DNA of 38,890 nt from Sphaeroforma arctica JP610 (lineage: Eukaryota): assembly GCF_001186125.1 (NCBI RefSeq), contig NW_014040522.1, positions 158,315-197,204 of the forward strand. The letters run 5' to 3'. Position 1 is the first letter of the stretch; each line of letters starts with the position of its first letter. This document shows, one piece after another, positions 1 through 21,567 of this stretch. Both the position numbers and the translations under genes were made by a program. Under the pieces are notes generated by a model that was not told the origin of the DNA, made no database searches, and worked only from the letters and a program-made list of their open reading frames with translations.

Positions 1-1907
1 TGTTCAACCACCTGGGATTACACTTCCAGTCAGTGGCTAGTAACTCACGTACGGATTTATTAAAGTCCGGTACAAAGCGTGATAACATATCCGGTAAATG
101 GTTATGTATTCCTGGCAGATGTTTTATATCAAAATAAAACTTTGATATTGTATCATGCCAGCGACTCAGTAATTGTGAGTCGGGTTTCATCTCACGAAGA
201 GATTTCTGATCACACATCAGCGTAAATGCTGTTCCGTATAAGTAATCTCGGAAGCGTGTTTGAGATGCCACTGTGGCTAATAGCTCTTGTTTAACAGTTG
301 GATAATTCAACTGTGAAGCATTCATTGCTCGATTAAAGAATTGTATCTAGGTTTACCATCTATAACCAGATATAATACTCCTAAGGCTAAGTCGGAGGCG
401 TCCGTTGTTATTTCAAACGGCACGCCATCGACTGGTCCTTGTACAACTGGGGTTTGTTGGACTGCGTTTTTGAGCGCTTTAAACGCGTCATCACACTCTT
501 TAGTCCACAAGTCTCCTAGTTTGCCTTTATGACACCTTAAGTGTCCAAACAAAAGGTTTAAGGTAATCAGCCAAGTGTGGTACTCCGTCTGAAAAGAAGT
601 TTACAAACCCACACATGCTGTTAACATCTCTTCCTGTAGTTGGTGTTTGCCAATCTAACAGGTGTGCTACCTTACCGGGGTCGATTTTAATACCTTCCCC
701 AGAGATATGGTAGCCTAAGAGCTGTATTTCGCTCATTGCGAAGTGGCATTTCTTCTCGTTAATCTTGAAGTTTTGCTCGTTGAGTCTCTTAAGGACTCGT
801 CTGATTAATGCGGCATGTTCGCCCTTAGTCTTAGAAAAGATGACTATGTCATCTATATAGACTTGCACGTTAGGCATGTCTGTGAACATTTATTCTTACT
901 TGTTGGAATAATGCTGGTAAAGAGTGTAACCCGAAAGATGCACCTCTGAACCGGTATTGTTTACCTTTCCACGTAAAACTAAAGTATTTACGATGTGGTC
1001 CATATACCTGCATTTGATGGTATCCTTGTGTAAGGTCTATAGTTGTAAATACTGTAGCACCTTCCATCCTTCGCAGTAGCTCGTTAATATGAGGTAAGTG
1101 AAAGCTATGAGTAGGCAATAATTCATTTATTGGACTCATATCTAAACATACTCTGACTTTCTTAAACGATCCGTCAGAGTTATGTTGGTCTACGGCTAGC
1201 AGCGCCAAGTAAACTGGCGTCTGTTGATAGTTAATTTCTATCACTCCATCTGCTAACTATTTCTCAACTTGTTCTTTTACCACAGCCTCGTGTCTCCAGG
1301 ATACATAGTTCCTTGAGGGATACTTTAACTGTGTAAAATCTACCTTGGTTAAGTCAAGGATAACATACCCGTCGTTAAAATTTACACAATCTGTGATCTT
1401 TATCTTCTTATTAACTAGAATCAGATCCATGATTTTGTTCGCAAAGTCAGGTATTAATGCCTTGACTGTGTCTGACGGGGGCTTATATGGATTCAGACAG
1501 TTATCGTCTGATTGATCCTTTAATGGATCTATCTTATTTGGTAGACCCGCTACGGTTATACCTAGAGTGAGTAAATCGCTCATTCCGACTATAATGTCGT
1601 ACTTCTGTGACATCTTAACTATCACAGCTTGGGTAGTGATATTCCTATCATTGGCCAGGGAGATTTTAATATCTGTGGCCATGGTATCACACTTAGCAGT
1701 TTTATCATCAGCTAAAATGAGGTGAGTTGTTTGTGTTCTCCTTTCGATATCTTTCATTAATGCAAAGCGATCGGATGTACATGAAATTTTTGAATCAGGA
1801 TCAATCAACGCAAGGATTTTATTTACATTGCAGTATACAGGGATTATTACAAGTTCATCTAAAGAGTCGTTGTATTGTCTGTGTAACGATTGTACCTGGT
1901 AGTACCT
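1..1907 (-). pseudogene. pol: pol of element A: protease, reverse transcriptase, RNase H, first residues of the MTase domain; broken by stops and frameshifts
   Basis: ORFs 1257-1808, 870-1244, 527-889 and 322-552 are consecutive pol pieces. Positions ~160-1 read WHDTISKFYFDIKHLPGIHNHLPDMLSRFVPDFNKSVRELLATDWKCNPRWLN, homologous to the RH/MTase junction of element B. Confidence 0.92.
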
Positions 1908-4150
1908 TCACTCCAACTTAATGTTGGGCTTTTTGTCACAAGACTTAGTGTGATACTTCTCACACTTGTCGCACTTAATAAGAAAGTGTGTACAGGTGGA
2001 CGTATGTCTGCCATTCCAATAGCCGTTAGGGGTTAATTGGTACATGTCATACCCACACTGTGCGTCGGCACATTTCTTAATCTCTTTAAATGGAGGTTCC
2101 ATGTCCTTCGCTCCCGCGCGTGCCCGTTTATTGGGTCGCGTGGATAGAGTGGAGTCGCGAGCACGTGTATGTTGGGGTCTCTCGTTTGAGGTCTACCTGG
2201 ATACGTACCCGTGATCGGTGTGCTCCCGCGGCTTCTTAACAGCCGCTTTTCCCTTCGATGTTACTCGATGTGCGGGGGAAAGGGTAGATACAGTATCATA
2301 AAACTGTTCCCACGTAAGTCGGGATAGATGAAACTTTGTTTCATGTCCCTTGTCTCGAGCCTCAGTTGCGTGTTTACGTCGCAACTCGGTGTACTGGCTC
2401 TCACGGTCGTTATTCCCTATGTTCTTACAGAACACGTGCATAACCAGGAACTCGTACCATCGCTGTGCCTTGTTCTTTGTTATATCTGGACGTTTCAGGT
2501 CAGCATCTAGCTTCAGAATATAACTCTGAATGGGCGTGTTCTCAACTGGTTCAGTTAAAATTGAACTCAGTCCAGGGCTACGCATGTCCTTGCTTAACAA
2601 GGATGTAACCTACCAACACACAGCTGGCCGGTCACGACAAGTGTCTAGCTCATGCTGGTGTCGCTGCAGGATCAAATAACTTGTACCCGTAGGGTCAAAC
2701 GTCTGCATTAAGCAGAGATCCATTGCTGGGGAGCAATATCATTCGTCACCAGCATGACCGTAAACGCATCAAGCGTACGGGTTAGCATGTCGAGGTCATG
2801 GTTGTTTATAAATTCGACCTGCTTACTGTTAGCATCCCAGTTCGACTTAAGTCGGCTGATCTGTCCCTTGTACTTCTGGTTGTCCCTGTGGTCTTGTCCA
2901 CGTTGGGCCTGAAGTAACTGATCAATGCGCTTTTGCTTAATCGTAATCATATTCGCAAAGTATGCTACATCATCAGCATGATGCGCATCGTGGGCGATTT
3001 CCATTTTAATGGTGTAATCGTCGACCGATTTGTTAAGTTCGGTCACCTCGTCAGTGTGAAAATCCTCTGCGGGTTGATGTAGTGCTGTGCGATCGAAGCG
3101 ATTAAATACCGACTTCGTTAACACGTTTACGGGGTTGTTTATTACCCCTTGTAAAATCCATGGTCGAGGCCTTTCGGTGCTCTGTTCCTCGGATAGTGGT
3201 TAGTATTATAATATTGGGTGATTCATACGTCTGGATAACATACACAGTCTTAACTGGTTTCCGACGATTGTCATCCCAATTGGGTAAAGGTGGCGGAGTA
3301 TTTCTACCAGCCTCTGGGTCTATAATACCCTCAAGGACCGGTGACTCACGGCCGGGTGTCATAACAGGCGATTTATTAGCCTGAAGTTCTGGTGGTAGTA
3401 CCTCGTAAGGTATAGATACGCTGAGCACATCTGAATCATATGCCACAGGTGTAGCGCTTGAGTCTTTACGTTCTTCGGGCGTAATTGCCTGTCGACGTTC
3501 TGTCCACTTCTGTAGGGCTTCAGTAATGCCCGGGGAAACATGCTCGCGTAAGTGCTGTGTATGTTTTCCTGATCTATATAATTGATCTACATGTTCGACA
3601 GTCAAGTCTTTCATAATGGTAGCTAACTGATTCTTAAGATCAGCGTTTTCAGTAATTAAGTTACTTATGTGCGTTGGCTTAGTAGTCTTGGACGTAGATT
3701 CGGGTTTGCCACTTGAGCTTGCCTCCTCGTCTGTAGTTCCTTCTGAGATTTGTCCTTGTCCCCTATAATTGGGGACTCCCTTATAATTGGGTGCTTTCCT
3801 TTCTGAGTTTCGTCAGAAGAATGGGTTGGGGCGTCTTGAGACGTGTCCCTTGTCTCACTTCTTGGCTTCGTAAATGCAAGCTTTGAAGTTGAGGCAATAG
3901 TTGGCCTTCGGGCTCTGTCAGTGGGAGTAGTTTGCTTAATCGGAGTGGCTACATCCTTATCTGAAGCATTGTCCTTTTGACTATTATTGTCAGAGGCAAG
4001 TACTTCGGCTACAATGCGGTTAAACGCATCAGCAGCGGCAGCGGTTGCTTCTGCGGCAGCAGTAGCTGCGGCAGCGTTAGAGGCTTCTCTCTCCATCTTC
4101 TTCTTTTCAGCTTTACGCTTCTTAGAAGGAGTATTGTCTTTCTTGGTCAT
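1908..4150 (-). pseudogene. gag: gag of element A (fragmented), with C-terminal Cys/His cluster
   Basis: ORFs 3665-4150, 3102-3614, 2708-3124, 2193-2600 and 1908-2102 lie between LTR and protease. They share motifs with gag of B (LTWEQFY/LTWAEFY; WNGRH..C.HF..KC..C). Confidence 0.8.
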
Positions 4151-4277
4151 AATCTTAACTTATGACTACTAGCTTGCCTCTTAAGGACTAGCTTGGACAA
4201 GAAAAATTTTGTGGTAGTTAATCTACCTTTACACTTAAGTAGTCTAAGTAATTAATACCTTTGCTAACTTTAAAATG

Positions 4278-5151
4278 TGTAAGATTCGGTCCCTCAAGGC
4301 GATATTAACGCCTTAGAATAAATAAACGCGTAGGTAAATTCTGAGTATCGTGAAAATATCAAAGCAAATAAACGAAATAAGACATTTAGTAAAGGTAGGT
4401 TTGCCTCGTGAAAACAGCAATACTCTGAGGGATTGTGAGGCTGAGACATTGCCTATATATATAATCCTCTCAGTACTGTTTCCGCCGAAGGGATTTTATT
4501 TAGTGTTTCGTTGTCGCTCTATTAGAAACTATGCTATGTTTCATTGGGGCGAATCCGAGGGACTCATATAATCCTATCTTTAGAAGAAGAAGAAATACTC
4601 TTGATGTCCTTAGTTATTGTCTTAACCAATAACATGCCACTTATCAAGAATTACCGACTTAGCCTTCATCAGACTGGCACATCTGGTTGGCTGATCGGAG
4701 TATCAACTAGGTAACGTTAATAGTCCTTAGAAACCTATATTCGGTTGAGCCATCTCGCTACCGAAGTTTTCAGATATAAATAAAAATGGAAAGTAAATAA
4801 AGTTCTATTAATAGAACTAGACCAACTCTTTATGTTTGGTACTTTACTGAGGCCTTTTAATGGCCTCGTCCGAATATCAGATATGTAAAATGGAAAAGGT
4901 ATTAATTAATAAAACCATTAAACCCCATTTTAGGAAACTTAAGTTCCTCGTGCTATTTAGAGTACATTTAGGAAACTTAAGTTCCTCGTGCTATTGAGAG
5001 TACATTTAGGGAACTTAAGTTCCTCGTGCTATTAAGAGTACATTTAGGAAATTTAAGTTCCTCGTACTATTAAGAGTACGTTTATAATTTACGTACTGCT
5101 TAAGAGTACGTTTATAACATAGAGTCTAATGTGGAGGCCCGGCTTATTACA
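4278..5151 (-). repeat. 5' LTR of element A (LTR family 1), 874 bp
   Basis: TGTAA...TTACA inverted termini. Closely similar to 7652-8418 and more distantly to 13655-14336. TATATATA at ~4454-4463. Confidence 0.93.
4929..5080. repeat. 38-bp tandem repeat x4 inside the LTR
   Basis: Unit TTTAGGAAACTTAAGTTCCTCGTGCTATTAAGAGTACA repeated four times; one copy only in the solo LTR (~8311-8348). Confidence 0.9.
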
Positions 5152-5396
5152 TTATGTACAATTCTAATTTCAGTGGAAAAACCGATCTATATTTGAAAAA
5201 CCACCTAATTGTCCACAGTAGAGTCCCATACTCTACTGAGTACTGTCACATGTTCAGAATCTTGAATTTATCAGTTCTTGTTCATTTCCAATTCGATAAA
5301 CGTATTCCAGTATTATAAGTATGAACGTTAATACGTTTATACGTTTATAAAATACGTTAACTTTGCAACTACTATTAGGAGCCCGATATTTTTACA
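5152..5396 (-). repeat. Start of the 3' LTR of element B, interrupted by element A
   Basis: Minus strand reads PPT-CTA-TGTAAAAATATCGGGCTCC; the sequence stops at the LTR terminus of A (5151). No second copy is in the window. Confidence 0.7.
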
Positions 5397-5399
5397 TAG

Positions 5400-5410
5400 C
5401 CCCCCCCCTC
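5400..5410 (-). promoter_or_regulatory. Polypurine tract (plus-strand primer) of element B
   Basis: GAGGGGGGGGG on the minus strand, 3 nt before the LTR TG and downstream of the integrase stop. Confidence 0.85.
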
Positions 5411-5582
5411 GGCTTGAAAATTACAATTTTGGCTTATACGTGGTATTAGCACATAGATTAAAAAAGCTCACATGAATTGTACAAGCGAAAAGAAAAGAAA
5501 CGGGTTTCGATCATATAACGGCCTCAATGCTTATGTTATATTCTCTTCGACAAAGTATACTTAGACGTTTCAAGTTACTCGA

Positions 5583-6990
5583 TTACTCTATTATGTTTGG
5601 GCTTTGATCCTTGTGGTCCCCGATGGTGGATGGGACGTTTCTTAATGCCTTTTGGAGGTACGTACATTCCATGCTGTTTAAAGCTGGGAATGTATGATGT
5701 CTGTGGATAGATCTTAACCACTTCGGGTCGCTTATTCGATGGTAAGATTGTTTCTGCATCAGCCTTATTTTTGTGTAAGCGTTTGTGAAACTTCTTATTA
5801 AAAGCCTTTAGTACATCCGGATCATCAAATGCTAATGGTGGAAGATCCTACTGTGCTCCATCGGCGAACTCCGTAGTGTAATATGTCATATCCTCATGTT
5901 TGTACTTCCCTAGAATCTTCTTAAACTCGTAAGACATAAGAGGTGTAGTAGCTTCACGTGTGCGACGAAGGATGATCTCTGTCGTAGGGATTCGATGTGA
6001 CCCGATATTTAAGGCACTAGAGCCGTCAACGTTGTTAACTTCATACGTTCCGCTCTTCTTATCGGCCACAGAGATCATAAATGGTCCAATATATTTAGCC
6101 GCTAGCACAGTTGTATCGGAGTTGCGAGCCATAATGTTGACTATATCGCCTACCTCAAACTCAACTATTTTCTTGTTATCTTTCCATCGCTTTTATCTCT
6201 TCTTGAGAGCGATGTCCTTCATCTCCCTTAAGCAAGGATATACCACATCTCTGGTCCGACGCATCTTCTCTAACCATGGTAACACATGATCATCTTGAGA
6301 CTCCTTGTTGAAGGGGATCTGTAATTCACTATAACGGCCCCGGAAATAGTAAGCGGGTGTTGTACCAGTGATTGAATCAGGGGATTCGTTCATCTGTGTC
6401 TGTACCCAATTGATTGAGTACGGCTACATGTCAGCATCATCAAGTAGTGCTCCTCGCATGAACTCCTTCATCTTTCTGTGTCGTACCTCGTTCGCACCTT
6501 GTGTCTGAGGCTTGTAAGGTACACCCATCTTATGGCATGATCCCGCAACGAGTAACAGTGTCGTCATGACATCTCCTGTAAACTCACTACCGTTGTCGGA
6601 ACATACAATAGCTGGCCAGCCGAAATCTGCGAAGCACTTATATATGCACTCAGCCACAGTTTGTGTCGATTTATCTTTCAGCGGATACAATACATTATAT
6701 CTTGATGCGACATCAAACACGTGACAGACATATTTATCCTTCGTGTGTTCGGACGTGGGTAGCTCAACCAAATCAATGATATCCCGGCGCCACGGCTCGT
6801 CTTCTGATACGCTGCGTAAAGGTGCGTATCCGTAGCGCTTGATCCGGTTAACTTCGCAGTTGTTACATTCGTGATACACCTGAGATATATATTGCTTGAG
6901 GTTCGGGTGTACGATTCCGTGCCTCTTGCAACCTTCCTCAGTTCTAACCTTCCCATGTGCTTAAGAGCATGATTTTGTCTTAACCACTTC
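5583..6990 (-). pseudogene. DDE integrase of element B with HHCC finger, GPF motif and divergent chromodomain
   Basis: HALKH...CNNC; DIIDLVELP; FADFGWPAIVCSDNGSEF; PYKPQTQGANE; AKYIGPF; YEFKKILG...YYTTEF...*DLPPLAFDDPDVLKAF. Frameshift near 6880-6900 and internal stops. Confidence 0.92.
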
Positions 6991-7436
6991 AGAATCGCCT
7001 TCTGTGATTTACTTGTTACATTGAAATCAGGAGGTGAGAATTCCACCGCGTCATCACCTGGACTCGAAGACTCGTCTTGTCCAATCTCGCTTAAAGCTTC
7101 TACATCGTGAATCCGACTAATGTTTGATTTATCCATTAGTTGAGTCACATGATCATATACCTCGGGAAAGTCATTCATCAATTGCTTAAGCAATCGAGTT
7201 TCTGCTTGGTATGTAGTTTCCCTGTCAGACCGTATCTTGTTGTAGAAGGCTTTCGCTAGTGTTGCGCTCCTCTTTGATTCCTTTGAATTTGGCTGTATCT
7301 CGGTAACACATATTGCAGGTGCTTGTGTTGTCCCAGTCTCTGATTGAGACTTGGGAATCAAGAGTGGAATCTTGGATTCTTCAACCTTCTGTTTGAAAGT
7401 CTCGGATGTTGTCCACTTGGTTGTTCCAACTGGACC

Positions 7437-8612
7437 TATTCGACATATAATAGTATGTCGCCAAGGCGTCTTTTGGACTGCACGGATACCCTGGTAGAGA
7501 AAAGTATCTACCTCTCTGTCCACATAGATCGGCTCACATTGTATCATTGAGATCAACTGTGGTAGCCATTTATCTGAGTGTCTTAGGGGACAACACAACG
7601 TGATGGTAGCATCTTGAATATGTACATAATTTAGCAACTGTGGTATTAATATGTAAGATTTGGCCTATCAAGGCGATATTAACGCCTTAAAGTAATTAAA
7701 CGCGTAGGTAAAGTCTAAGTATCGTGAAATTTAAAGTAAATAAGCGAAATGAGTCTTTTCGTAAAGTTAGGTGTGCCTCGTGGAAAAAACAGCAATACTC
7801 TGAGGGATTGTGAGGCTGAGACATTGCCTATATATAATCCTCTCAGTACTGTTTTCGCCGAAGGGATTTTATTTAGTGTTTCGTTGTCGCTCTAATAGAA
7901 ACTATGGTATGTTTCGTTGGGGCGAATCCAAGAGACTCATAAAATCCTATCTTAAGAAGAAGAAAAAAGAATAGAAAAAGAAAAATACTCCTTATGTCCA
8001 TAGTTATTACATTAACCAATAACTTGCCACTTATCAAGAATTACCGACTTAGCCTTCATCAGACTGGCACATCTGGTTGGCTGAACGGAGGATAAACTAG
8101 GTAACGCTCCCTAGAAACCTATATTCGGTTAAGCCTTCTCGCTACCGAAGTATTCAGATATAAATAGATTTGGAAAGTAAATATAGTTCTATTAATAGAA
8201 CTAGACCAAATCTTATATTTGGTGTTTTACTGGGGCCTTTTAATGGCCTCGTCCAAATATCTGATATGTAAAATGGAAAAAGTATTAATTAATAAAACCG
8301 TTAAAACCCATTTAGGAAATTTAAGTTCATCGTACTATTAAGAGTACGTTTATAGTTTACGTACTGCTTAAGAGTACGTTTATAACATAGAGTCTAATGT
8401 GGAGGCCCGGTTATTACAAATAGCCATGGAGGATTTGCCCAGGCATTCTCGTGAGACAAGTCTATCTGGAATCCGTCTCCTTCCGGATGTTCCAGTGTCC
8501 GGTACCTCGGCAGTTGCGCATTATGATGAGCGGCAAACATATCTATGGTATGTGGTACATATATGTTGTCAGCGATCTTAAACCACCTAGGATTGGCCAT
8601 CCAATCTGTAGC
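7437..8612 (-). pseudogene. Dam-like DNA N6-adenine (amino) methyltransferase domain within pol of element B, split by a solo LTR
   Basis: After removing 7652-8418 plus one TSD it reads in one frame: TDWMANPRWF...PHTIDMFAAHHNAQLPRY...DGFQIDLSHENAWANPPWLLIPQLLNYVHIQDATITLCCPLRHSDKWLPQL...TPWRHTIICRI. NPPW codons at 8424-8435. Confidence 0.88.
7652..8418 (-). mobile_element. Solo LTR (family 1), 767 bp, 4-bp TSD AATA
   Basis: TGTAA...TTACA termini; AATA at 7648-7651 and 8419-8422; similar throughout to 4278-5151. Confidence 0.95.
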
Positions 8613-8639
8613 TAGTAACTCCCTAACCATCTTGTTAAA

Positions 8640-10497
8640 GTGTGGTACGAAGCGAGACAACATGTCGGGTAAGTGATTGTGAATACCCGGTATATGTGTT
8701 ATACCGAAAGAAAATTTCGCGATTGTGTCATGCCACTAACTGACTAACTGTGAGTTAGGTTTCATGTCCTTTAGGTGTTGCAATGACTTCTGATCACATA
8801 GCACGTTAAAGTGCGTGCCATATAGATAGTCCTTAAAATGAGAGTGTGCAGTAGCAATAGTCAAAAGCTCTTGTTGCACGGTTGGGTAATTGATCTGAGA
8901 CGAATTCATAGCCCTGCTAAAGAACTGTATATATCTTGGTTTCCCATCAATCATTTGATACAAGACGCCGCCGAGCGCCATGTCGGACGCGTCTGTTGCT
9001 ACCATGAATGGAATACCATCCTTTGGTGGCTGGACTACTGGTGCCTGCTGAACCACTGAATTGAGCTGCTTAAATACGTCATCACAGTCTTTGGTCCACA
9101 GTGTGCCTAGTTTGCCTTTATGACATCTCAAATGTCCAAAGGGCTTTAAACAACTTGCCAGGTGTGGTACTCCGTCAGAAAAAAGTTGACGAATACGCAC
9201 ATGCTGTTGACATCCTTACCCGTGGTAGGAGTTATCCGTCTAGCAAGTGGTCAACCTTCCCGGGATCGATCATGATTCCATCCCCGGATATTCGGTAACC
9301 CAACAGCTGAATCTCGTTAACACCGAAGTGGCATTTCTTACTGTTGACCTTAAAGTTGTGCTTGTTGAGTCTGTCTAGAACCTCTCGCACAACATTTTCG
9401 TGCTCCTCTTTAGTTTGGGTGAATACCACTATGTCATCAATGTATACTTGTACATTGTCCATGTCCCTAAACAAGTCTTGCATAATTTGTTGAAATAACA
9501 CAGGTGACATGTGTAACCCAAAGGGGGCACCTTTGAACGAATATTGCTGACCCTCCCAGGTAAAGGTGAAATACTTCCGATGTGGTTTGTAGATCTTTAT
9601 CTGGTGGTAGCCCTGCTTCAGGTCGATAGTGGAGAATATCTTAGCTCCCTCCATGCGCCTGAGTAGTTCGTTTATCCTTGGTAAGTGAAAATTGTGTGTC
9701 GGTATCAAAGCATTAGTTGGGCTCATATCCAAACACACCCGAACTTTCTTCAAGGTCCCGTCAGAGTTGAATTGGTCGACGGCTAAAAGCGCTAGGTTGA
9801 CGGGAGTCGGCTCGTAGTTGACTGCGATCACCCCGTCATCTAGCCATGCTATAACCTGTTCTCGTACGACCTGCTCATGACGCCATGCAACATAGTTACG
9901 TGTAGGACACTTAAGCTTCGAGAAATCTACTCTCGTCAGGTCTAGACTAACGTATCCGTTATTGAATTTAAACTTAGCCCAGTCAGTGATCTGAATCTTG
10001 TCGTTCTCGAAAATCAAGTCCTTGAGTTTCTCTGTGGTTTGAGGAATCATCTCCTTCACAGTCTTCGAAGGTTTATTTATCGGTTTCAACAAGTTATCGT
10101 CCGACTGATCCTTCTGTGGTTCAATGTTAGTAGTTAAGCCTGTAATTGTGATACCTAATGACAATAAATCACTCAGACCTACTATGAGATCATAGTCTGG
10201 TGAAGTGTTACATATGACTGCCTTAGTAACTATAGTACGTTGGTCTGTCAATGTAAACCTAAGATCGATTGCCATTTCTCTGCAAGTGATCTCTCTTTCA
10301 TCAGCTAGTTTCAACATAGTTGGCTCTGACTTACGAGTTACGTCTATTATTTTACAGAATCTAGAGGATACACATGAAATTTGCGAGCCCGGATCCAACA
10401 ACGCTTTTATTTCATTCCCGTCAACTCGTATATCTAGGATTACACGCTCGTCTTGAGGTGCGTCCTTTTGTCTTAGTGACAAGACCCGGTATGTTTG
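8640..10497 (-). pseudogene. pol: Protease, reverse transcriptase and RNase H of element B
   Basis: ALLDPGSQIS; IDLKQGYHQ; APFGL; YIDDIVVF; VATDASD...QELL...DQKSL...LPDMLSR. Frameshift near 9200-9235 and a stop at 8736. Confidence 0.95.
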
Positions 10498-12234
10498 TCA
10501 CTTAACTTCAACTTTTGGTTTCACCTTGCATGTATGCTTGTGGTAACCTCCAGTCCCGGTACAGTCGGCACACTTCTCGATAAAGTGCTTACACTTTTCT
10601 GCGTGCCTTCCATTCCATCTGCCTTTCGGCTCATGTTGGGTCATTCGCCAATTGCAATCAGTCTCACTACAGTTCTTGACCTCCCTATGCCTGGGCTTAG
10701 GGTTGCCTGCCGGCGGGTGGCTTTCAGAACTATTTGTATTTTTGTTCTTTTTGCCACCCTTATCACCCCTTTTGCTTACCTTCTGACCTCCATTAATGGA
10801 CTGAGAGTCTCGATCATTGCCTGATCCCCCGGTAAGATTGCCGCCGACCTTCCCCTGATCATTAGTGACTTTCACCACGGAACTAGGGCGTTTGGTAAAC
10901 GTCTGATCCTCTCTCGAGTAAAATTCAGCCCAGGTTAAGTCCGCTAGCTTCATTATGCCGTAGGTAGGTCCTTCAATGGAGATCTCTCGTACCTTGTCCG
11001 GGTAAGATTGATGCACATCAGCGTACAGAATCTCTTGATCTCTCCTATGTAGGTTTGACCAAAAGATTGTCTGCACCCATAGTACACACACGGATAGTTT
11101 GTCAGGTGACATCTCCTGTGTCTGTGCCCGTGACATGTGTGTGTCCAACTCCAATAAGTAGTGGGACACCGGCGTTCCTTCTTCCGGTGGTATCATGATC
11201 GATACAAGCAATTCCGGTCGAGGGTCCGTTGAAAATAAGTGGACGATCATCTCACTCTGCTCTTTCCACGTTTTCAGCTTAGTGATCGCTTGTTTAGCTT
11301 TCTCTAACTTGTTATACGTGTAAGAGGACGGCTTAAAGCTCTGCTGCGCTGTTTCGAACCATATGTTCTTCCGTAGATTGGCTGTAAGCATAATTTGTCC
11401 AAACTCTTTCAAAGACCTAGATAATAACGCCAGACTGCTAGTATCGGTTGGATCCTTTCGGTCCTTTCGATCAGACCTGTATGTCGTTGGTAGTTTACCT
11501 ATGTCCTTACAAACTTCTTGCCTTCTACAGCCTTCTCGGTCTGAATCACTCTTAGTCTGGAGGTGCGTAGCCATTGTCATATAAAGACTAACGGCATCAA
11601 TCCTACCTAGATACATCGCCTCGAGTGAAGCTGCCTCAGCCTTGTTCATTTGAACAGTGAATTCAGCAATTTTCAGATCACTACTGGTGTGATCTGATCC
11701 ATTCTTTTCTAACTGCATCTGGCCATGCAGTCAGTTGTCTGCCTCATCCTTTGATCCATCGACCTGTTCAATGTGAATCAACGCTTCTGATGGGACAGCA
11801 TCTTTTGTCGTCGTTGGGATTGTCGCTGGTGGCGAACTGTCTTCCGATGACGACAAAGATTTTCTAGCTTCCACCTGATCCGGTTTAGGCTCTTCGGTCG
11901 GTTTGTCCTTCGGAAATACCTCTGGGGCCCTCTGTGGATTTCCTTCCGGTGGTGGATTTGGATTAGGCTCCTGTTCAGATGCCATTCGCGACATTGCTGT
12001 TGTGTCCAATCCAGGAGAAGATTGAGCTTCGGATGATGAAGATTGGATTCTGTTTGCCCCTCCATTGTCTGGCAACATCTCAAACGCCAATATGGCTTGA
12101 TAGAGTGCCAAATGGTTTGATATCAAGTCGGGAATGTCTCCAAGAAGATCCCGAATTGGTACCAAATTAATTGTGCAAAACTTCCATCTCTCCTAGTTCC
12201 GAATACCTTCGGTAGTGTCTTTTGAAACTGACGG
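10498..12234 (-). pseudogene. gag: gag of element B (5'-truncated by gap)
   Basis: ORFs 10498-11718 and 11731-12165 directly upstream of the protease; C-terminal Cys/His cluster homologous to that of A. Confidence 0.8.
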
Positions 12235-12767
12235 NNNNNNNNNNNNNNNNNNNNNNNNNNNNNNNNNNNNNNNNNNNNNNNNNNNNNNNNNNNNNNNNNN
12301 NNNNNNNNNNNNNNNNNNNNNNNNNNNNNNNNNNNNNNNNNNNNNNNNNNNNNNNNNNNNNNNNNNNNNNNNNNNNNNNNNNNNNNNNNNNNNNNNNNNN
12401 NNNNNNNNNNNNNNNNNNNNNNNNNNNNNNNNNNNNNNNNNNNNNNNNNNNNNNNNNNNNNNNNNNNNNNNNNNNNNNNNNNNNNNNNNNNNNNNNNNNN
12501 NNNNNNNNNNNNNNNNNNNNNNNNNNNNNNNNNNNNNNNNNNNNNNNNNNNNNNNNNNNNNNNNNNNNNNNNNNNNNNNNNNNNNNNNNNNNNNNNNNNN
12601 NNNNNNNNNNNNNNNNNNNNNNNNNNNNNNNNNNNNNNNNNNNNNNNNNNNNNNNNNNNNNNNNNNNNNNNNNNNNNNNNNNNNNNNNNNNNNNNNNNNN
12701 NNNNNNNNNNNNNNNNNNNNNNNNNNNNNNNNNNNNNNNNNNNNNNNNNNNNNNNNNNNNNNNNNNN
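12235..12767. other. Assembly gap (N run)
   Basis: 533 consecutive N. Confidence 1.
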
Positions 12768-12883
12768 ATACCCTGGCCATCCCAAGCGGTTGAACACTAG
12801 GACAAACACCTTAGGTATAAATCCAAAGGTGAGTCAGAAATAAAGAATACATTTGAACTTTATTTGATGTCTACTACATAACA
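12768..12883 (-). repeat. Fragment of LTR family 2, cut by the gap
   Basis: Reverse complement starts TGTTATGTAGTAGAC...AAATAAAG and contains CTAGTGTTCAACCGCTTGGGATGGCCAGGG, matching 14953, 20118 and 21160. Confidence 0.8.
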
Positions 12884-14336
12884 GTATTTGTTATCTCTGC
12901 ACGGTCAATATTCCTTTCAAGCACAGGCTCATGTACAGGTTCTTTGGAACTGGACGTAGGAGTAAGGGGCTCAACCTTCGGTTCATCCTCGGTCAGACTT
13001 CTTCAACTTCCGCTTCTTTCACTATTTCAACGTTATACATCTGGTTTCCGTGAAATAACATGGGTCTTTGTAGTCATCGGCCTTTTTGCCTCACTTTCCA
13101 CGAGTCCACTCGGCTAGATCTACAGTTTCTGTCGGCAGAGATATGTTCACATAGGCGCGTGATTTTTCATTCGATCCATATATACAGCTTCTAAATTCTC
13201 CGTAACGAGTTTATGTATTAAAGCTGCTAACTGAGACTTAAGTTTAGCGTACTCATCCGTCGACTTACTTATCTCAGTCAATGAGGCAGATTTGGACGTT
13301 GTGCTGAGTGGGCCCCAAAGACTGGTCTCTTGGTTATTTTACTTTGGCAGCTCAGGCTCGACTATGGACTCTTTTTGCTGGCCAAGACCGGAGTCTTCTC
13401 TATCCGACTTTTCTCTTCAGACATAGTAGGGGTTGATTTAAAACCCCGGGTCTCGAATGTCAGCTTTACTTCCTAGATTTAAGTTTCTTCGAGGAAGAAG
13501 AATCCATGGTATACTTCGATACTGAACCTTAAGTATTGAAGACCTTCATTCTCTTAAGGAATAAATGTACAGGAAATTAATATTATATGGTAGTTGACAC
13601 CACAACGTTTAAGCAGCAGCAGTTGTGGTTGTTACTTTCGCTAATTTTAAAATATGTAAACGACGGTTTAACGAGACTATATTGACGGTTAAAGCGTAAA
13701 CGTAGGACTATTGTTTTTAACAGTTCTATTGAAATATGCACGAAGTAGGCGAACTATAAAGTTAGGGTGCCTCGTGGATCAGCAATACTCTGGGGGGATT
13801 TGAAGACTGTGACATTGCTTATATACAATCCTCCTAGTACTGAATTCGCCGAAGGCATTTTTATTTATGTTTCCATCGTCGTCTTGGCAAACTTATTATT
13901 ATTGGTTTCGTCGCGTGCAGATGGTAGCTAAGCGAAATCCTATCTTTAGAGAATAAAAGAAGGGAAAATGAAAAGTATACTCTTGACCTCCCTAGTAGTT
14001 GTATTAACCAACGACTAGCCACGGATCAAGAATCACCGGCTTGTCTACATCAGAATGGTGAACTGATTGGCTGCTCGGAGGAAAAACTAGGCAACGTTAA
14101 TAGTCCCTAGATACCTATTATCAGTTGTGTTGAGCTATCTCGCAACTGAAGTATTCAGATATATATCATTGGGAAAATAAATGGGACTTTTAATTTGCCT
14201 ACTCCAAATATCTAATTTGTAAAATAGAAGATATTTATAGATAAAACCATTAAACCCTATTTGATGAACTCATTGTACCTACTTGTTAAGAGTGCTTTAT
14301 ACAATTGGCATCTAATGTGGAGGCCTGACTATTACA
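12884..14336 (-). mobile_element. 5' part of Gypsy element C (family-1 LTR 13655-14336 plus decayed gag 5' end)
   Basis: TGTAA...TTACA termini, homologous to LTR 4278-5151. ~13270-13160 reads EYAKLKSQLAALIHKLVTENLEAVY, similar to A gag ENADLKNQLATIMKDLTVEHVDQLY. Confidence 0.8.
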
Positions 14337-14819
14337 CTTTACGAAAGAAAGTTACCCTCCATCCCCAGGTTGGTGTGGCAGGCCCTAGGCCAAAAGGTTG
14401 ATCTTAAAAAAGAGAAATCCTAATTACCTCAGTTCTTATACTGTAAGTATCCCGTAAAGTATTTGAATCTTGCATATACATTTGGCTTGAGTCAAACAAC
14501 TTTATGAGTTGATCATAATCTTCAGGTTCACATTTTTAAGAAGATATGAAAACCCCCAAAACCTTAGCACGTGCTTCCTTAATAGCATTCTTCATACTCA
14601 TATGAAAGCAACCTGTTACAACCTTTCCTCTTCTCTCATACAAAGTTGCCGTAAACACTTCCGGTGGAATTTGCGTAGTCTTGCGACTTATCCCTCTGTG
14701 GTACTGTTTCTTTATACTCGGGGTTCAGATATAGTTTTATCTATCTCTATAAGAAGAATGGTAGATTCATCTACTGTACTTGGAATTTCTTTGAAGGTTT
14801 CCAAGTAGAAGTTCTCTAG

Positions 14820-15690
14820 GGCCTATATGACATATCATCGTCTGAAGACGTCTTCTTGACTGCCTGGGTACCCATATACCGGAAGGTGCTAACACCTCTT
14901 TTCAAATACATTGGTTCATCCTGTGTCATATTCATTCGTTCATTGAACCAGGTGTTGGAGTGCAATGTAGTAGACTTTAAATAAAGTGCAACTGTATCTA
15001 AAGTACGTTGCATTCGAATGAATTTTTTTATGATCTCACCCTCAGTTATATACTGATGGTGTTTGTACTAGTGTTCAACCACTTGGGTTGGCCAGGGCAA
15101 AAACTCATATGATCAGTAGAAGAAACCTTATGCAGAACACTTTAGCACTCGGATATATTTTCTAGAAATAAATATATAATATTCTCTGTTACTACACTCA
15201 GTCTCGGACCTCGGCTCTCGGCTAGCCGGTGGCCCGTATCCTATAAATAGAATAATCTGAGAAGAAGTCTCAAATTACTCTTACGTTCTCTCGGGCTGAC
15301 CCACCTATACTTATATTAATTTGAGAACAAGTATCATATTACTCTCGGGCTGACGACGTAAAACGTTATTAACATATATAGAAATACGTCTACTACTGTA
15401 GTCTCTCACCAGGGATCTGTTTCCCGTATCAACACAGAGTGATCCTAGCGTTCACTATGTTAACCAATGCGATTTCCTTAATAATTTCCAAGACGGATTT
15501 TCCCATGCGTTTTGTTTCCTACGATTAATCTCAAATGCATCTCTTTATATTGATTTGAGGACCTAAGGCCCGGACGTTGTGCATTATGTGACGCAGTGAA
15601 CAGATCTATATTATGTTTGCCCCATCTTTTCTCAGCTAACTAAAAGAATCATGGAAACAATTTTCAATCGGTTGCTCAACTCATGTACTA
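14820..15690 (-). pseudogene. Decayed MTase domain of element D, split by a family-2 solo LTR
   Basis: KHNIDLFTASHNAQRP...DAFEI...NAWENPSWKLL...ARITLC...DPWFNE...EPMYLKRGVSTFRYMGTQAVKKT; collinear with the B domain. NPSW at 15488-15499. Confidence 0.82.
14953..15408 (+). mobile_element. Solo LTR (family 2), 456 bp, 5-bp TSD CCAGG
   Basis: TGTT...TCA; CCAGG at 14948-14952 and 15409-15413; homologous to 21160-21567. Strand is arbitrary, chosen relative to the other family-2 copies. Confidence 0.92.
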
Positions 15691-18600
15691 CCTTTTTTGA
15701 TAGACTGGTAGCTGACGTACTAGCATATCCGGCAAGTGATTGTGCACAATTGGTATATGTCCTTTTGTAAAAGAGAACTGACGAATTGATCATGCCATCT
15801 ACTTACAAGCTGGTTGTATGGATTCATATCATTAATATAATCTAAGACTTTTGGTCAATTACCATTTCAAAGTGTGTACCATATAGTTAGTCTTAAAACA
15901 GCTCAAGGCTGATAATGTTCCTGATAATTCCTACTTTATAGTAGGATAATTACGATGTGGGGCATCTAAGCTCTTACTAACGAATTGCACATATCTAGGC
16001 TTCTCAACAACCTGATATAGTACTCCGCCTACAGCGTTATATGATGCGTCAGTAGCTACCTGAAAAAGTATCCCGTCTATCGGACGACGAATTATTGGAG
16101 CAGTCGTGTATGACAGTCTATACTTTACGTAAAACTTCTTCCCATTCAGATATCCATAGTTATCCTAGCTTACCTTTATGTAAACGTAAGTGACCAATGG
16201 GCTTTAATAAGCCCGATAACTGCGAAACTTCATCTGTAAAGAAATTTGTAAATCTGCAGAAGCTGTTAATATTCTTCCAGTTTGTAGGGATTCTCCAGTC
16301 TTGGAGATGTTAAACTTTACTTAGATCTCATCACTACACCTTCAACTGAAATATGGTTTCCAAGCAATTGTAACTTTTTGACTCCCCACTCATACTTCTG
16401 CCCATTTATTTTGGAAGTTATGAACATTCTAACGCGCAAGCACTTGTTTTGAGATATGCTTCTGCTTCCTTTGTTGCCGTGAAGACAATAATAATATCAT
16501 ACAAGTCACCTCTTCTTGAGGCATAACTTCGAACATATTCTCCATGATCTGATGAAAGCATATGAAGCACAAATGGTGGTCCTCTGAACATATATTGACT
16601 TTCTTTCTTTACAAATGAAAAGCGGCAACGATGTTCCTACACGAGTTTAAGCCGATTATAACTTTAGGTAACATCTGTTCTTGAAAAAACGCCCTTTCAA
16701 GGGATCTCAGTATCTCAGTTATACGAGGTAAGTAGAAGTAAATGTAGGCATTGTCTTATTAAAGGTACACATATCTAAACAAACTCTGTGCTTTTGGAAA
16801 GTTCCATCCGAGTTGAACTTATCTACAGCTAACAAAGCCAACTTATAGATGTAGGTCATCTTATCTTCAAACAATTGTTTTATCTGTCTTGAAGCAGTCT
16901 ACGTGAGACATAGTTGCGTTAGGGAATCTTTAGTTTAGTGAATTCAACTCAGGTCAAGTCTTAACTTACGTAACCTTAGTTAAACAATCCAATAGGTTAT
17001 ATCCTTATCGCCCGATTGATAACAATCAAGTCAGTGATTTTTTGACAAAATGAGGAATCAATTCCTTCATGTTATTATTTGGTGACGACGGTGGCTTCAA
17101 AATTTTATCGTCGGATTGATCCTTCATAGGTTTGACTCCGTTTGGTAATCCCGTAATATTATCCCAAAAGATAGCAAGTCTCCCAAGCCAGTTACAGTGT
17201 AGTCACATTGAATACAACCAAATCGATTTGTCCCATTATATGATCAAATAACATGGTATTTATATCACTGACTTTCTACTGAAAAAAATTAAGTTCATTC
17301 TCATTAGGCATGACAATATGCGTATCTCCTAAATATATTTTACGTCTCGCATAAGTGTTACACGTTGAGACGAGCGAGAAATTGAGCTACTGGGTCTAAT
17401 AATGCATCAATCTTCATTCCGTTTAAATATACAGGTGATACAATACGTTTATCGTCTTCAGACGTACACGGCTATCTGTCGTCACGTGATACCAATGTTT
17501 ATTGTCGTCTTTACCTTAGCGTTTATAGGTATCAGTTGGATATTGTTGCAAGATGAAGAGTGCTTTCGGTGTGTTGTCTTGGAACTAGTGCACTGTAAAA
17601 GGCACTTGCAAGAATCTGCATGTTTCCCAAAGGAGTTCGGTGTGAACTGGTTTTGATAAACCATAAATTCATACTCTGAATTTAAAACTTTTATGCAGTG
17701 GCTGTTGTTGCTGCTAGTCTTTACGTCCAGCTGGCTTCGAGTAACTTGTTGACAAGTTATATTTCCATGATCTTTATAATGGCCATTGACTCCTTTATTT
17801 GGTTTATTGTTAACATCGGACCTGGTAGAAGTACTAGTACAGGTAGACTGCATAAGTCGATTTTGTGACGATTCTTCAACTGTAAAAGCTTGCACGAATA
17901 TTTCTCACTCAGAATCTGCTACGTTTGAAGGCAGCTTTTCAGTCATAGCGTTGATCCATTAAAGCCTTTCCTGTCTTGAGTTTTTATTCATAAGATTGGA
18001 TTATATATGCATGATTTTTACTTCTAATACTCGTCGATACCAAACGGCCTATGGCTGTATAGAGAGCTTTGATAGTCTATCATCGTAATAAAAAACGGTG
18101 CTTATGGGAACGTTTAAGTTCCCACCATCAATCATGTTTAATAGAAGCGACATATTCTTCTCACAACAAACCAATTCTTAACCTATGTTAAAGAATTTAA
18201 TTGCGTTTCTGACTTCCAAAAGCCTATGTGTAGCTCCAAGGATACTATTTCTTTGTCGCTTCCTGTTTCTAGAGCATGTGTTAACGCATGATAATATTCA
18301 TAAATAGGCCATTCTTCTCTAATAAAAGTTATCGTCTTAGACGTTGTGAAAATGTTATAGATATTAATCCGATCCAATACTCTTATACGAAGTTTTCAGC
18401 ATAGATAAAGCTCGTTCTCTGTCTTCCACAGTTCGTGTCCAGCCACGATAGCTTGAGTGATCGGTGTGTTGCATTGTCATTTCTGAAATGTAACGCATAT
18501 ACAAATGAACACGCTTATTCAGCATGTTAAAATGTATAAGCATTTCGAAGACATCTCTTGCAAGTGAATAATTTATCAAACAAGCAGACTTATACACTGA

Positions 18601-20118: not shown

Positions 20119-21159
20119 TTCTGCCCTCAGACTTCACCATCACTACATCTTTTTTATCGAAATGCACCAAGTCGTGGGCATGGAGGCAATCGAGCGTTGC
20201 TGTCAGTTTGTTCGTTTATTTCAACGTTATCTTGCGCAGCATGGGAAGGATAGTGTCCTGTAATTGTTCCAAGCGTTGTACCCACGTATCGTTGGTGGCT
20301 GTTTGGGCTTCTGGTAATGCGACAGTCAGAAAAATCGGCGAACGGGAACTACCGACGACCGAAATACACACTGAATGGGGCGCTCTTGTGTCTACGCGAG
20401 ATGTGGAGGTTCTGATATTTTTAGTTCATCCTCGCAGCACATACGTATTGATCATGTGATGTCTTTGTGACGACGTCCCGCCGCTCCCAGCACTTGTGGG
20501 CGATATGTTGGTGACACTTTGTATAGCATCCCTACCCCCTTTACCAGTAGTTCTACGACTTGTTCGTTAATTCCGATCCCATGTGCGTTTGTATCATGCG
20601 TGCATATCCGTGTTCACTGAAGATCTCTATCAACGTCTGTACTGTTGTCTCCTTGGTCTTATCTGATGTGGTGCGGAGGATTGAAAAGCCTGTAGCCACA
20701 TCTAGTACGTGGAGGATGAATTCATTCTTCCTTCGGGATATGATCGGTTTAGGGAAGTAGGCAATTTGAATGTGATCCCATGGATACCATGCATCAATGC
20801 TGATCATGGGATGGAAGCCTTTGTGTAGCGTATCTTGACCTAAGCACACACCGCATTTGTCGGTTAACTTCCGTCGCTAGCTCCACACTCCAAGCCACAC
20901 ATACCCATTGTGTTGTAATTGTTGGACTGTGTCTGCTGCCCCGCGGTGTCCTTGTTCGTGTTGGGCATGCGTCATTTGTGTGCGTCGGAAGTTATTTGGT
21001 TGGTGTTGCTTGTGCGAACGCTAGTTGTCCTTCAGTGTTAGCCATGATAGTGCTCGCGATGTATCTATGCACCGGTGGTATAGTAAGTGTCGTGGCTCTT
21101 CATACCTGAGTCGTTGTGAGAAGTGTAGGTCAAACTCAAATCCACTAGGTGGATCTAAC

Positions 21160-21567
21160 TGTTAGCGTGTTGGGTGGGGGAATACAAGTAAGCTGAAGTG
21201 TGTCTAAAGAGTGGTGCGTTCGAATATAAATTTATTTTTATCTCAGCTTCAGTTATATACTGATAGTGTTTGTACTAGTGTTCAACCACTTGGGTTGGCC
21301 AGGGTAAAGCATGAAAAACCTAATGCAGAACACTTTAGTTCTCTGATATATTTCTAGAGATAAATATATCACTTTCACTGTTAAGCACTCTCAGTCTCGG
21401 GCCTCGGCTCTCGGCTAGCCGGTGGCCCGCCCATATATAGAATATTTTGAGAAGAAGTCCCAATTGGCTGATCCACCTATACATAGAGATGTCCCAAATT
21501 ACTCTCGGGCTTTTAGCGTAAAACGTCATCAAAGTATTTAGGATTACGCCTACTCCTGTCGTCCTCA
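21160..21567 (+). mobile_element. Solo LTR (family 2), 408 bp, 5-bp TSD CTAAC
   Basis: TGTT...TCA; CTAAC at 21155-21159 and 21568-21572; lies between RH and integrase of E. Confidence 0.9.

What the first reader, a model, noticed from the sequence alone, without database searches (positions are those of the whole stretch)
5583..10497. Gypsy LTR retrotransposon encoding a Dam-like DNA adenine methyltransferase between RNase H and DDE integrase
Seen: after the RNase H end (LPDMLSR), pol continues into TDW..NPRWF...HTIDMFAAHHNAQLPRY...DGF....NAWANPPW. Once the solo LTR and one AATA are removed, it reads in frame into LLIPQLL...ATITLCCP..SDKWLPQL, then a linker, HHCC-DDE integrase, PPT and a TG-starting LTR. 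Known: (D/N)PP(Y/F/W) is the catalytic motif of amino-MTases. A similar phage-Dam-like domain follows RNase H in DIRS elements, but those use a tyrosine recombinase. Cytosine MTases have been reported in some algal retrotransposons. Inference: this is an integrase-type Gypsy lineage carrying an amino-MTase with an intact NPPW motif, possibly methylating its own cDNA or target site to mimic or evade host chromatin marks. I do not recall this as a standard Gypsy architecture but cannot rule out earlier reports.
Basis: partly seen in the sequence, partly recalled or inferred. Interest (0 to 1): 0.93.

Follow-up and report, generated by a model that had tools for sequence, protein, structure and literature searches.

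The report
Dead methylase-carrying Gypsy retrotransposon, ichthyosporean lineage
This is a broken copy of a Gypsy-type jumping gene, likely from the single-celled animal relative Sphaeroforma, that carries an adenine-methyltransferase-like domain between RNase H and integrase; the design is real but a May 2026 preprint already described it, and the domain's likely job of methylating the element's own new copies is untested.

Summary
On the minus strand lie gag, protease, RT, RNase H, a Dam-like domain (NPPW), HHCC-DDE integrase, a polypurine tract and a probable LTR. A 767-bp solo LTR of a sister family splits the Dam domain. Contigs of 4 of 4 public runs join across the insert. Intact single-ORF relatives have the same order. 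The RT groups with Gypsy-type rows, not DIRS-like ones. An intact relative's domain folds as an N6-adenine methyltransferase. The nearest named proteins are from Sphaeroforma arctica and Abeoforma.

Novelty is refuted: bioRxiv 10.64898/2026.05.21.726589 names this ichthyosporean DAM-LTR lineage, and the scan met the design before in other genomes. This copy is dead: five premature stops, three frame changes and the insert.

Additions: (1) a degenerate chromodomain ends the integrase, though the preprint says this lineage lacks one; (2) the top solved-structure match is the RNA cap methyltransferase PCIF1, tied with other adenine methyltransferases; (3) gag and pol meet at a UGA in two sister elements; (4) a metagenome contig holds a Ty1/Copia element with Dam, not found in print. 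Interest 0.3.

The parts
10498..12192 (-). gag-like frame with two C-terminal Cys/His clusters; premature TGA at 11731-11733; ends at TGA 10498-10500, in frame with pol
   Evidence: no gag family hit in Pfam; aligns with the gag end of sister element A
10174..10434 (-). aspartic protease (LLDPGS)
   Evidence: Pfam Asp_protease_2 E 7e-4, under cut-off
9235..10020 (-). reverse transcriptase (YIDD), Ty3/Gypsy type; frame changes near 9235 and 9180
   Evidence: RVT_1 E 1.4e-33; tree; tblastn frames
8652..9100 (-). RNase H; premature TAG at 8736-8738
   Evidence: RT_RNaseH_2 E 4e-28
8424..8612 (-). Dam-like N6-adenine methyltransferase domain, 5' half (TDW, IDMFA..HN, NPPW at 8424-8435)
   Evidence: Pfam Dam E 2e-4; PHROG 111 and TIGR01712 match this row; 61-67% identical to intact P0001/P0002
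7652..8418 (-). solo LTR of a sister family inserted in the Dam domain; 4-bp target duplication at 8419-8422 and 7648-7651
   Evidence: 92% to LTR 4278-5151, 82% to LTR 13655-14336; joint 7647-8419 in 4 of 4 runs
7431..7647 (-). Dam-like domain, 3' half (LIPQLL..ATITLCCP..TPW)
   Evidence: 73-75% identical to P0001/P0002; 38 bits on an independent profile
6980..7430 (-). poorly conserved linker
   Evidence: 30-36% identical to P0001/P0002
5940..6979 (-). integrase: HHCC zinc finger (frame change near 6950), D,D(35)E core, GPF motif; stops at 6424 and 6193
   Evidence: rve E 7e-13
5775..5931 (-). degenerate chromodomain-like module at the end of pol; stop at 5848
   Evidence: HHalign 96.8%, E 2e-10 to sister-element chromodomains; model matches chromodomains; no Pfam hit
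5400..5410 (-). polypurine tract
   Evidence: seen in sequence
5152..5396 (-). putative 3' LTR of this element (starts TG), cut at 5152 by the LTR of sister element A
   Evidence: position after the polypurine tract; higher summed contig depth than the bin at 5561-5747 in 4 of 4 runs, a weak sign; no second copy in the window

Best explanation
This is a dead copy of a Ty3/Gypsy LTR retrotransposon, likely of the ichthyosporean DAM-LTR lineage, whose intact relatives make one protease-RT-RNase H-Dam-integrase polyprotein, and the Dam-like domain likely methylates adenines in the element's own nucleic acid during reverse transcription. Shown: the domain order, intact natural relatives, a Gypsy-type RT, and the breaks in this copy. 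Predicted: the methyltransferase fold of the domain and a chromodomain fold at the end of pol. Inferred: pol is made by bypassing the UGA after gag and is packaged in the particle. The enzyme, tethered to RT-RNase H and lacking its own target-recognition domain, would put N6-methyl groups on the RNA/DNA hybrid or new cDNA. After integration the host enzyme AMT1 would keep 6mA at ApT sites, so the new copy looks like an active gene and stays transcribed. Identity about 0.95; this mechanism about 0.5.
For: P0001 and P0002 (1400 and 1376 aa) are single ORFs with RT-RNase H-Dam-integrase in this order. The Dam halves are as conserved as RT and RNase H (61-75% versus 63-73%), the linker only 30-36%, which points to selection on the domain. 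Of 30 hits scanned (chosen mostly for length, out of 150 listed), 13 carry Dam and rve in one protein, 9 with RNase H-Dam-rve in order. The RT falls with 23 other Gypsy-type rows, apart from 31 rows lacking protease and integrase (SH-aLRT 100), and in a 16-row set with an Abeoforma Dam-bearing pol (99). P0002's best PDB sequence hit is Ty3 Gag-Pol, E 3e-71. The model of the P0002 domain (pLDDT 77) matches phage N6-adenine methyltransferases (E to 5e-6 for named rows) and adenine methyltransferases in PDB. The preprint (whole text read) reports more 6mA and more transcription on DAM-LTR insertions than on other LTRs in S. arctica and A. whisleri, and an association with AMT1. [quoted passage not shown]
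Against: No activity has been shown: eukaryotic DAM domains gave no rise in 6mA in dam-deficient E. coli. The 6mA enrichment is a correlation and could follow from transcription. P0001, an intact close relative, has CPPW in place of NPPW. Iyer et al. judged DIRS1 methyltransferase domains likely inactive (PMC4738411 passage). The scan's notes report other DAM-LTRs that lost the motif (not checked here). The host is inferred from paralogous fragments at 63-72% identity, not from a host gene. No dN/dS and no modification data were obtained here.
Confidence: 0.5

Rival explanations
1. The domain is an RNA methyltransferase like PCIF1. It would mark the element's RNA (cap-adjacent m6Am or internal m6A) to aid stability, translation, stop-codon bypass or packaging, and the 6mA on insertions would be the host's answer to their transcription.
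For: The top three Foldseek rows in PDB are PCIF1/CAPAM (E 4e-4 to 8e-4) and it ranks first by VIA (Z 7.7, rmsd 4.0, 133 aligned). Many following rows are rRNA adenine methyltransferases. Iyer et al. place DIRS-type domains in the PCIF1 clade. It would explain the negative E. coli DNA assay.
Against: Z 7.7 is within about 1 of several rRNA enzymes and 1.2 above E. coli Dam (6.5), at 10-14% identity, so the fold does not fix the substrate. Viral-library and sequence matches point to phage DNA methyltransferases. The preprint's tree derives the domain from prokaryotic Dam.
Confidence: 0.2
2. The domain no longer catalyses anything. It is kept as a nucleic-acid- or chromatin-binding module that, with the chromodomain-like tail, steers integration into or beside 6mA-marked active chromatin.
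For: No activity in E. coli. CPPW in intact P0001; of 157 proteins scored, 100 show NPP(W/F/Y), 31 another form and 26 no match to the pattern. Iyer et al. suggest inactivity for DIRS copies. Insertion into marked chromatin would also give the reported 6mA enrichment.
Against: NPPW and the D(L/M)FA motif are both kept in the window copy, P0002, P0003, P0004 and (NPPW) the Abeoforma protein. This copy lies in a nest of decayed elements, not visibly beside a promoter.
Confidence: 0.22
3. The arrangement is an accident of nesting or assembly: a DIRS-like RT-RNase H-Dam piece lying next to an unrelated Gypsy integrase.
For: The window is a nest of several broken elements with assembly gaps, and no piece listed in the read lay spans the whole stretch.
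Against: Intact single-ORF relatives are collinear with the window from protease to integrase tail. A protease is present, the RT is Gypsy-type, and public contigs join across the insert.
Confidence: 0.01

Closest known systems
Ichthyosporean DAM-LTR lineage (Fernandez-Moreno et al., bioRxiv 10.64898/2026.05.21.726589, 22 May 2026; Pirum gemmata, Abeoforma whisleri, Sphaeroforma arctica)
   Same: Ty3/Gypsy organisation with a Dam (PF05869) domain and Asn-Pro-Pro motif; nearest named proteins are from S. arctica and A. whisleri; RT groups with an Abeoforma Dam-bearing pol.
   Different: The preprint says this lineage lacks chromodomains; a degenerate one is found here by profile and predicted fold. 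Its main text does not mention gag-pol readthrough or frameshifting. This copy is dead. Its supplements could not be seen, so whether this exact family is in its set is unknown.
DIRS tyrosine-recombinase retrotransposons with an MT/Dam domain
   Same: A homologous Dam domain directly after RNase H; a profile from mostly DIRS-like rows scores the window domain at 130 bits.
   Different: Has an aspartic protease, a DDE integrase and direct LTR-type ends; no tyrosine recombinase seen; RT on the other side of a fully supported branch.
Phage N6-adenine methyltransferases (Pfam PF05869, TIGR01712, PHROG 111)
   Same: Sequence and fold of the catalytic core, including NPP(Y/F/W).
   Different: About 145 residues inside a polyprotein; per the preprint the eukaryotic domain lacks the first catalytic and target-recognition parts of T4/E. 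coli Dam; activity not shown.
PCIF1/CAPAM cap-specific adenosine N6-methyltransferase
   Same: Top solved-structure match; same clade as DIRS-type domains in Iyer et al. (PMC4738411).
   Different: 12-14% identity; no WW domain or cap-binding helical domain (recalled features of PCIF1); substrate of the retrotransposon domain unknown.
Retrotransposon-borne cytosine methyltransferases (KnitGypsy-Dnmt3, SymbioDIRS-Dnmt3; PMC5890265)
   Same: A DNA-methyltransferase domain carried in pol of a retrotransposon, including a Gypsy.
   Different: C5-cytosine enzymes, unrelated to this amino-methyltransferase.

Membership tests
Ty3/Gypsy LTR retrotransposon | pol order protease-RT-RNase H-integrase | tested here: met
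Ty3/Gypsy LTR retrotransposon | RT groups with Gypsy-type RTs | tested here: met
   (quick tree, SH-aLRT 100, no named reference RTs in it); best PDB hit of P0002 is Ty3 Gag-Pol
Ty3/Gypsy LTR retrotransposon | HHCC and D,D(35)E integrase | tested here: met
   rve E 7e-13; motifs read
Ty3/Gypsy LTR retrotransposon | paired direct LTRs with primer-binding site and polypurine tract | tested here: inconclusive
   tract and TG start seen at 5396-5410; no second LTR copy in the window; N gap at 12235-12767
DAM-LTR (2026 preprint) | PF05869 Dam domain in the pol of a non-DIRS LTR element | tested here: met
   window half E 2e-4; intact relatives E 8e-5 to 4e-10; fold
DAM-LTR (2026 preprint) | Asn-Pro-Pro catalytic triplet with following aromatic residue | tested here: met
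   NPPW at 8424-8435; P0002 NPPW; P0001 CPPW
Ichthyosporean DAM-LTR lineage | ichthyosporean host and clustering with Abeoforma/Sphaeroforma elements | tested here: met
   named hits SARC_07824 (72%), SARC_07241 (63%), Awhi_evm1s3944; 16-row RT set, SH-aLRT 99. Host inferred from element proteins only; the Dam tree link to Abeoforma is weaker (87)
Ichthyosporean DAM-LTR lineage | lacks a chromodomain (a description in the preprint, from Pfam-level detection) | tested here: inconclusive
   no Pfam Chromo hit, as the preprint says; but a degenerate chromodomain by profile-profile and predicted fold
DAM-LTR (2026 preprint) | raised 6mA and transcription over insertions | not testable with these tools
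   no modification calls or recorded RNA holder available
DIRS retrotransposon | tyrosine recombinase, no protease or DDE integrase | tested here: not met
   protease and rve present in the element and in intact relatives
Active N6-adenine DNA methyltransferase | SAM-dependent methyl transfer to adenine in DNA | not testable with these tools
   preprint's E. coli assay was negative

The most novel reading that the evidence does not exclude
The retrotransposon 'Dam' is a PCIF1-like enzyme that works inside the particle on RNA or RNA/DNA hybrid rather than on chromosomal DNA, ichthyosporean DAM-LTRs pair it with a hidden chromodomain, and the same module has also jumped into Ty1/Copia elements (locus L001: protease, UGA, Dam with NPPF, integrase, RVT_2, RNase H), a superfamily the RVT_1-based screen in print would not have classified.
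Probability: 0.3. Interest if true: 0.62.

Novelty: already known. Interest (0 to 1): 0.3.

Why it matters
If the model is right, a transposon writes the host's 'active gene' mark (6mA) on its own new copies instead of dodging silencing, which bears on how transposons adapt to hosts that use 6mA. That idea is already in a May 2026 preprint for this lineage. What this window adds is practical: intact natural polyproteins (P0001, P0002) to test, a fold-based reason to test RNA and hybrid substrates after the negative E. coli assay, a hidden chromodomain that amends the preprint's description, and a lead to a Copia element with the same domain.

Tried and rejected
No whole genome is held for this window, so copy number, intact copies in the same assembly and LTR dating were not done. 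IMG/VR scans found no relative of the window Dam half or of the L001 Dam. No RNA holder on record was listed; no evidence either way. Sequence profiles of the Dam domain found no methyltransferase in PDB; only the fold search did. ARAGORN found no tRNA gene. The sister LTRs are not followed by a TGG primer site; a self-priming complement was sought, and the one 14-nt match in element A was not shared by element D, so it was dropped as chance. A profile of canonical chromodomains did not detect the window tail (HHalign 4.8%); only the profile of divergent sister chromodomains did. The fold model of the tail used those sister rows in its alignment, so it leans towards that fold; Foldseek E-values were 0.1 or worse and the best VIA Z was 7.7. 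The careful Dam tree did not finish; the quick tree has 43 of 100 branches open and L001 on a long branch, so no donor or direction of transfer is claimed. Single-sequence folding 3' of the gag UGA gave no structure that I could match between A, B and C, and no shuffle control was run. No variant list or dN/dS was obtained for the Dam domain. The ESM Atlas look-up for L001 did not complete. DIRS chimera reading rejected.
Full report
Anatomy. The finding is one element on the minus strand. A gag-like frame (12192-10498) ends in TGA and is followed in the same frame by protease and RT (RVT_1 E 1.4e-33), RNase H (E 4e-28), a stretch that hits Pfam Dam PF05869 at E 2e-4 (21.4 bits, under the 28.1 cut-off), a linker, and an integrase (rve E 7e-13) with HHCC, D,D(35)E and GPF motifs. 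A polypurine tract at 5400-5410 precedes a TG at 5396, the likely start of the element's own 3' LTR. That LTR is cut at 5152 by the LTR of a sister element and has no second copy in the window; a 533-N gap lies upstream of gag. The copy is dead: premature stops at 11731, 8736, 6424, 6193 and 5848, frame changes near 9235, 9180 and 6950.

The insert. 7652-8418 is a 767-bp TGTAA...TTACA repeat with a 4-bp target duplication. It is 92% identical to the LTR at 4278-5151 and 82% to that at 13655-14336, so it is a solo LTR of a sister family. It landed one codon after NPPW. Insert plus one duplication is 771 bp and both halves share a frame. In 4 of 4 public DNA-type or unrecorded runs laid, contigs join 7647 to 8419, so the uninterrupted form exists.

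The domain is real and belongs to pol. A search for longer proteins gave 4 hits among 19 candidates. P0001 and P0002 are stop-free polyproteins with RT-RNase H-Dam-integrase in this order; P0003 and P0004 have the same RT-RNase H-Dam order with weak integrase or Chromo hits downstream. P0001 and P0002 are collinear with the window element from protease to integrase tail. Identity of the window pieces to P0001/P0002 is 63/70% in RT, 73/66% in RNase H, 61/67% and 73/75% in the Dam halves, 56/53% in the integrase core and 30/36% in the linker. A full HMMER search gave 192 proteins at E up to 0.001, 150 listed. Of 30 chosen mostly for length, 13 have Dam and rve in one protein, 9 with RNase H-Dam-rve in order; none has RVT_2. 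Of 157 proteins scored with my profile, 100 show NPP(W/F/Y); the query biases this. A profile from 76 rows not labelled Gypsy scores the window halves at 77 and 38 bits and the two read through with X at 130 bits. PHROG 111 (DNA methyltransferase) matches 6 of 8 alignment rows and TIGR01712 matches 5 of 8.

Fold. The P0002 domain modelled on an 8-row alignment has mean pLDDT 77, pTM 0.76. Among viral models the best named matches are phage N6-adenine methyltransferases (E 5e-6, TM about 0.63-0.70), with PCIF1-like giant-virus proteins lower. In PDB the three matches at E under 0.001 are PCIF1/CAPAM. VIA ranks PCIF1 first (Z 7.7, rmsd 4.0, 133 aligned), tied or nearly tied with RNA adenine methyltransferases, with E. 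coli Dam at 6.5 and M.TaqI at 6.3. The fold says amino-methyltransferase; it does not say which substrate.

Placement. In an RT tree of 55 rows (73 hits; P0005 and those covering under 120 profile positions left out; quick method, no named references), the window RT lies with 23 other rows that I labelled Gypsy-type, apart from 31 rows, at SH-aLRT 100. None of those 31 shows a protease or rve in Pfam (26, 5); I call them DIRS-like by inference. A 16-row set (99) holds the window, P0001, P0002 and an Abeoforma whisleri RT-RNase H-Dam protein. The nearest named proteins are Sphaeroforma arctica SARC_07824 (72%) and SARC_07241 (63%) and Abeoforma Awhi_evm1s3944. Sphaeroforma is an ichthyosporean. 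The host is therefore likely Sphaeroforma; this rests on element proteins, not on a host gene.

What is known. My first literature search found bioRxiv 10.64898/2026.05.21.726589, read whole (supplements closed). It reports Dam domains in Ty3/Gypsy elements as a first, defines five DAM-LTR lineages, and names an ichthyosporean one in Pirum, Abeoforma and S. arctica. It finds more 6mA and transcription on DAM-LTR insertions, an association with AMT1, and no activity in dam-deficient E. coli; it proposes methylation of RNA-DNA intermediates with upkeep by AMT1. Iyer et al. (PMC4738411, passages) put DIRS-type domains in the PCIF1 clade and thought them likely inactive. PCIF1 acts on ssRNA, hybrids, ssDNA and dsDNA in that order (PMC9178792, abstract). 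De Mendoza et al. 2018 (PMC5890265, passages) cover cytosine methyltransferases in Gypsy and DIRS. The scan's notes list six DAM-LTR-like Gypsy findings in other genomes and none in this genome.

How it likely works. Pol is likely made by bypass of the gag UGA and packaged with the RNA. The small methyltransferase, beside RT-RNase H, would meet the hybrid and new cDNA there and add N6-methyl groups; host AMT1 would then keep 6mA on the insertion and keep it transcribed (about 0.5). Rivals: RNA methylation as by PCIF1 (0.2) and a non-catalytic binding or targeting role (0.22); an accidental chimera is refuted (0.01). Against the main model stand the negative assay, the CPPW form in intact P0001, and the correlative nature of the 6mA data. 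In this copy nothing works.

Additions. (1) The last domain of pol (5775-5931) has no Pfam hit and is missed by a canonical chromodomain profile. It aligns almost without gaps to divergent chromodomains of sister elements (HHalign 96.8%, E 2e-10), which match canonical ones (98.1%); single-sequence scores of 6-13 bits beat the best of 300 shuffles each. Its model (pLDDT 80) retrieves chromodomains in all Foldseek rows shown, at weak E (0.1 or worse), and as the top VIA rows over 48,161 chains (Z 7.7, rmsd 1.6, 56 aligned). The alignment leaned towards that fold. The aromatic cage looks incomplete (recalled cage positions). This amends the preprint's 'lacks chromodomains'. (2) Elements A and B, 67.5% identical over 1.6 kb of pol, have an in-frame TGA at the aligned gag-pol position; a gag-UGA-pol design is known from Candida Tca2 (PMC2194720, abstract). 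(3) The one locus confirmed among 81 pattern matches in JGI metagenomes, L001, is a Ty1/Copia element: zinc knuckle, protease, TGA, Dam (E 3e-10, above cut-off, NPPF), rve, RVT_2, RNase H-type end. Its downstream protein cluster has 6 near-identical members from JGI and ENA. The preprint's main text has 0 mentions of copia or Ty1, and two paper searches showed no listing on such an element (one listed paper checked by passages). It is one family of unknown host without visible LTRs, and the preprint's supplements may bear on it.

Verdict. Observation confirmed; interpretation right on what it is, wrong on novelty. Already known; interest 0.3.

Noticed in passing
L001:180-6545 (+), JGI contig Ga0115006_10012071: Ty1/Copia element with a Dam domain (Pfam E 3e-10, NPPF) between protease and integrase, an in-frame TGA between protease and Dam. 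Not in the main text of the 2026 preprint and not found in two paper searches. Six near-identical cluster members; host unknown; no LTR pair in the contig.
   Followed up: partly
window 10498-10500 and 1908-1910 (-); perhaps 17482-17484: gag and pol are in one frame, separated by TGA at the aligned position in sister elements B and A; element C has a TGA near the same place but is too decayed to judge. Suggests programmed stop-codon bypass.
   Followed up: partly
window 1-5151 (-): Sister element A (LTR 4278-5151 with a 38-bp tandem array, gag, pol) inserted in the putative 3' LTR of the finding's element; 67.5% identical over 1.6 kb of pol; runs into TDW..NPRW at the window edge, so likely also a DAM-LTR.
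   Followed up: partly
window 14400-17900 (-): A third, much decayed relative (element C) with RT, RNase H and a Dam domain (NPSW). Its Dam domain is also split by an insert, about 15020-15470, of another repeat family that recurs at 21196-21568.
   Followed up: partly
window 12850-14336 (-): A further LTR of the sister family (13655-14336, 82% to the others) followed by a leader and what looks like a gag remnant (element D).
   Followed up: no
window 4255-4277 and 13630-13654 (-): The sequence after the sister-family LTRs has no TGG tRNA primer site but is similar in both copies; the priming mode is unexplained. The target duplication seen for this family is 4 bp.
   Followed up: partly
window 20300-23020 (-): Another decayed Gypsy-like element (RT, RNase H, integrase at about 30% identity); no Dam match by tblastn between RNase H and integrase, where a repeat of another family sits.
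   Followed up: partly
window 31300-32870 (-): Exon-like pieces resembling a UvrD/Srs2-type helicase (recalled motifs, not searched), with introns rich in TA and CA microsatellites.
   Followed up: no
window 27530-28840, 34230-34900, 37240-37615: Tandem arrays of 58, 33 and 111 bp; the 111-bp array lies in an open frame (37032-38084, minus).
   Followed up: no
proteins P0135, P0154, P0094: P0135 and P0154 carry Dam before the protease, not after RNase H; P0094 has dUTPase next to Dam. The module sits in several positions in retroelement proteins.
   Followed up: no
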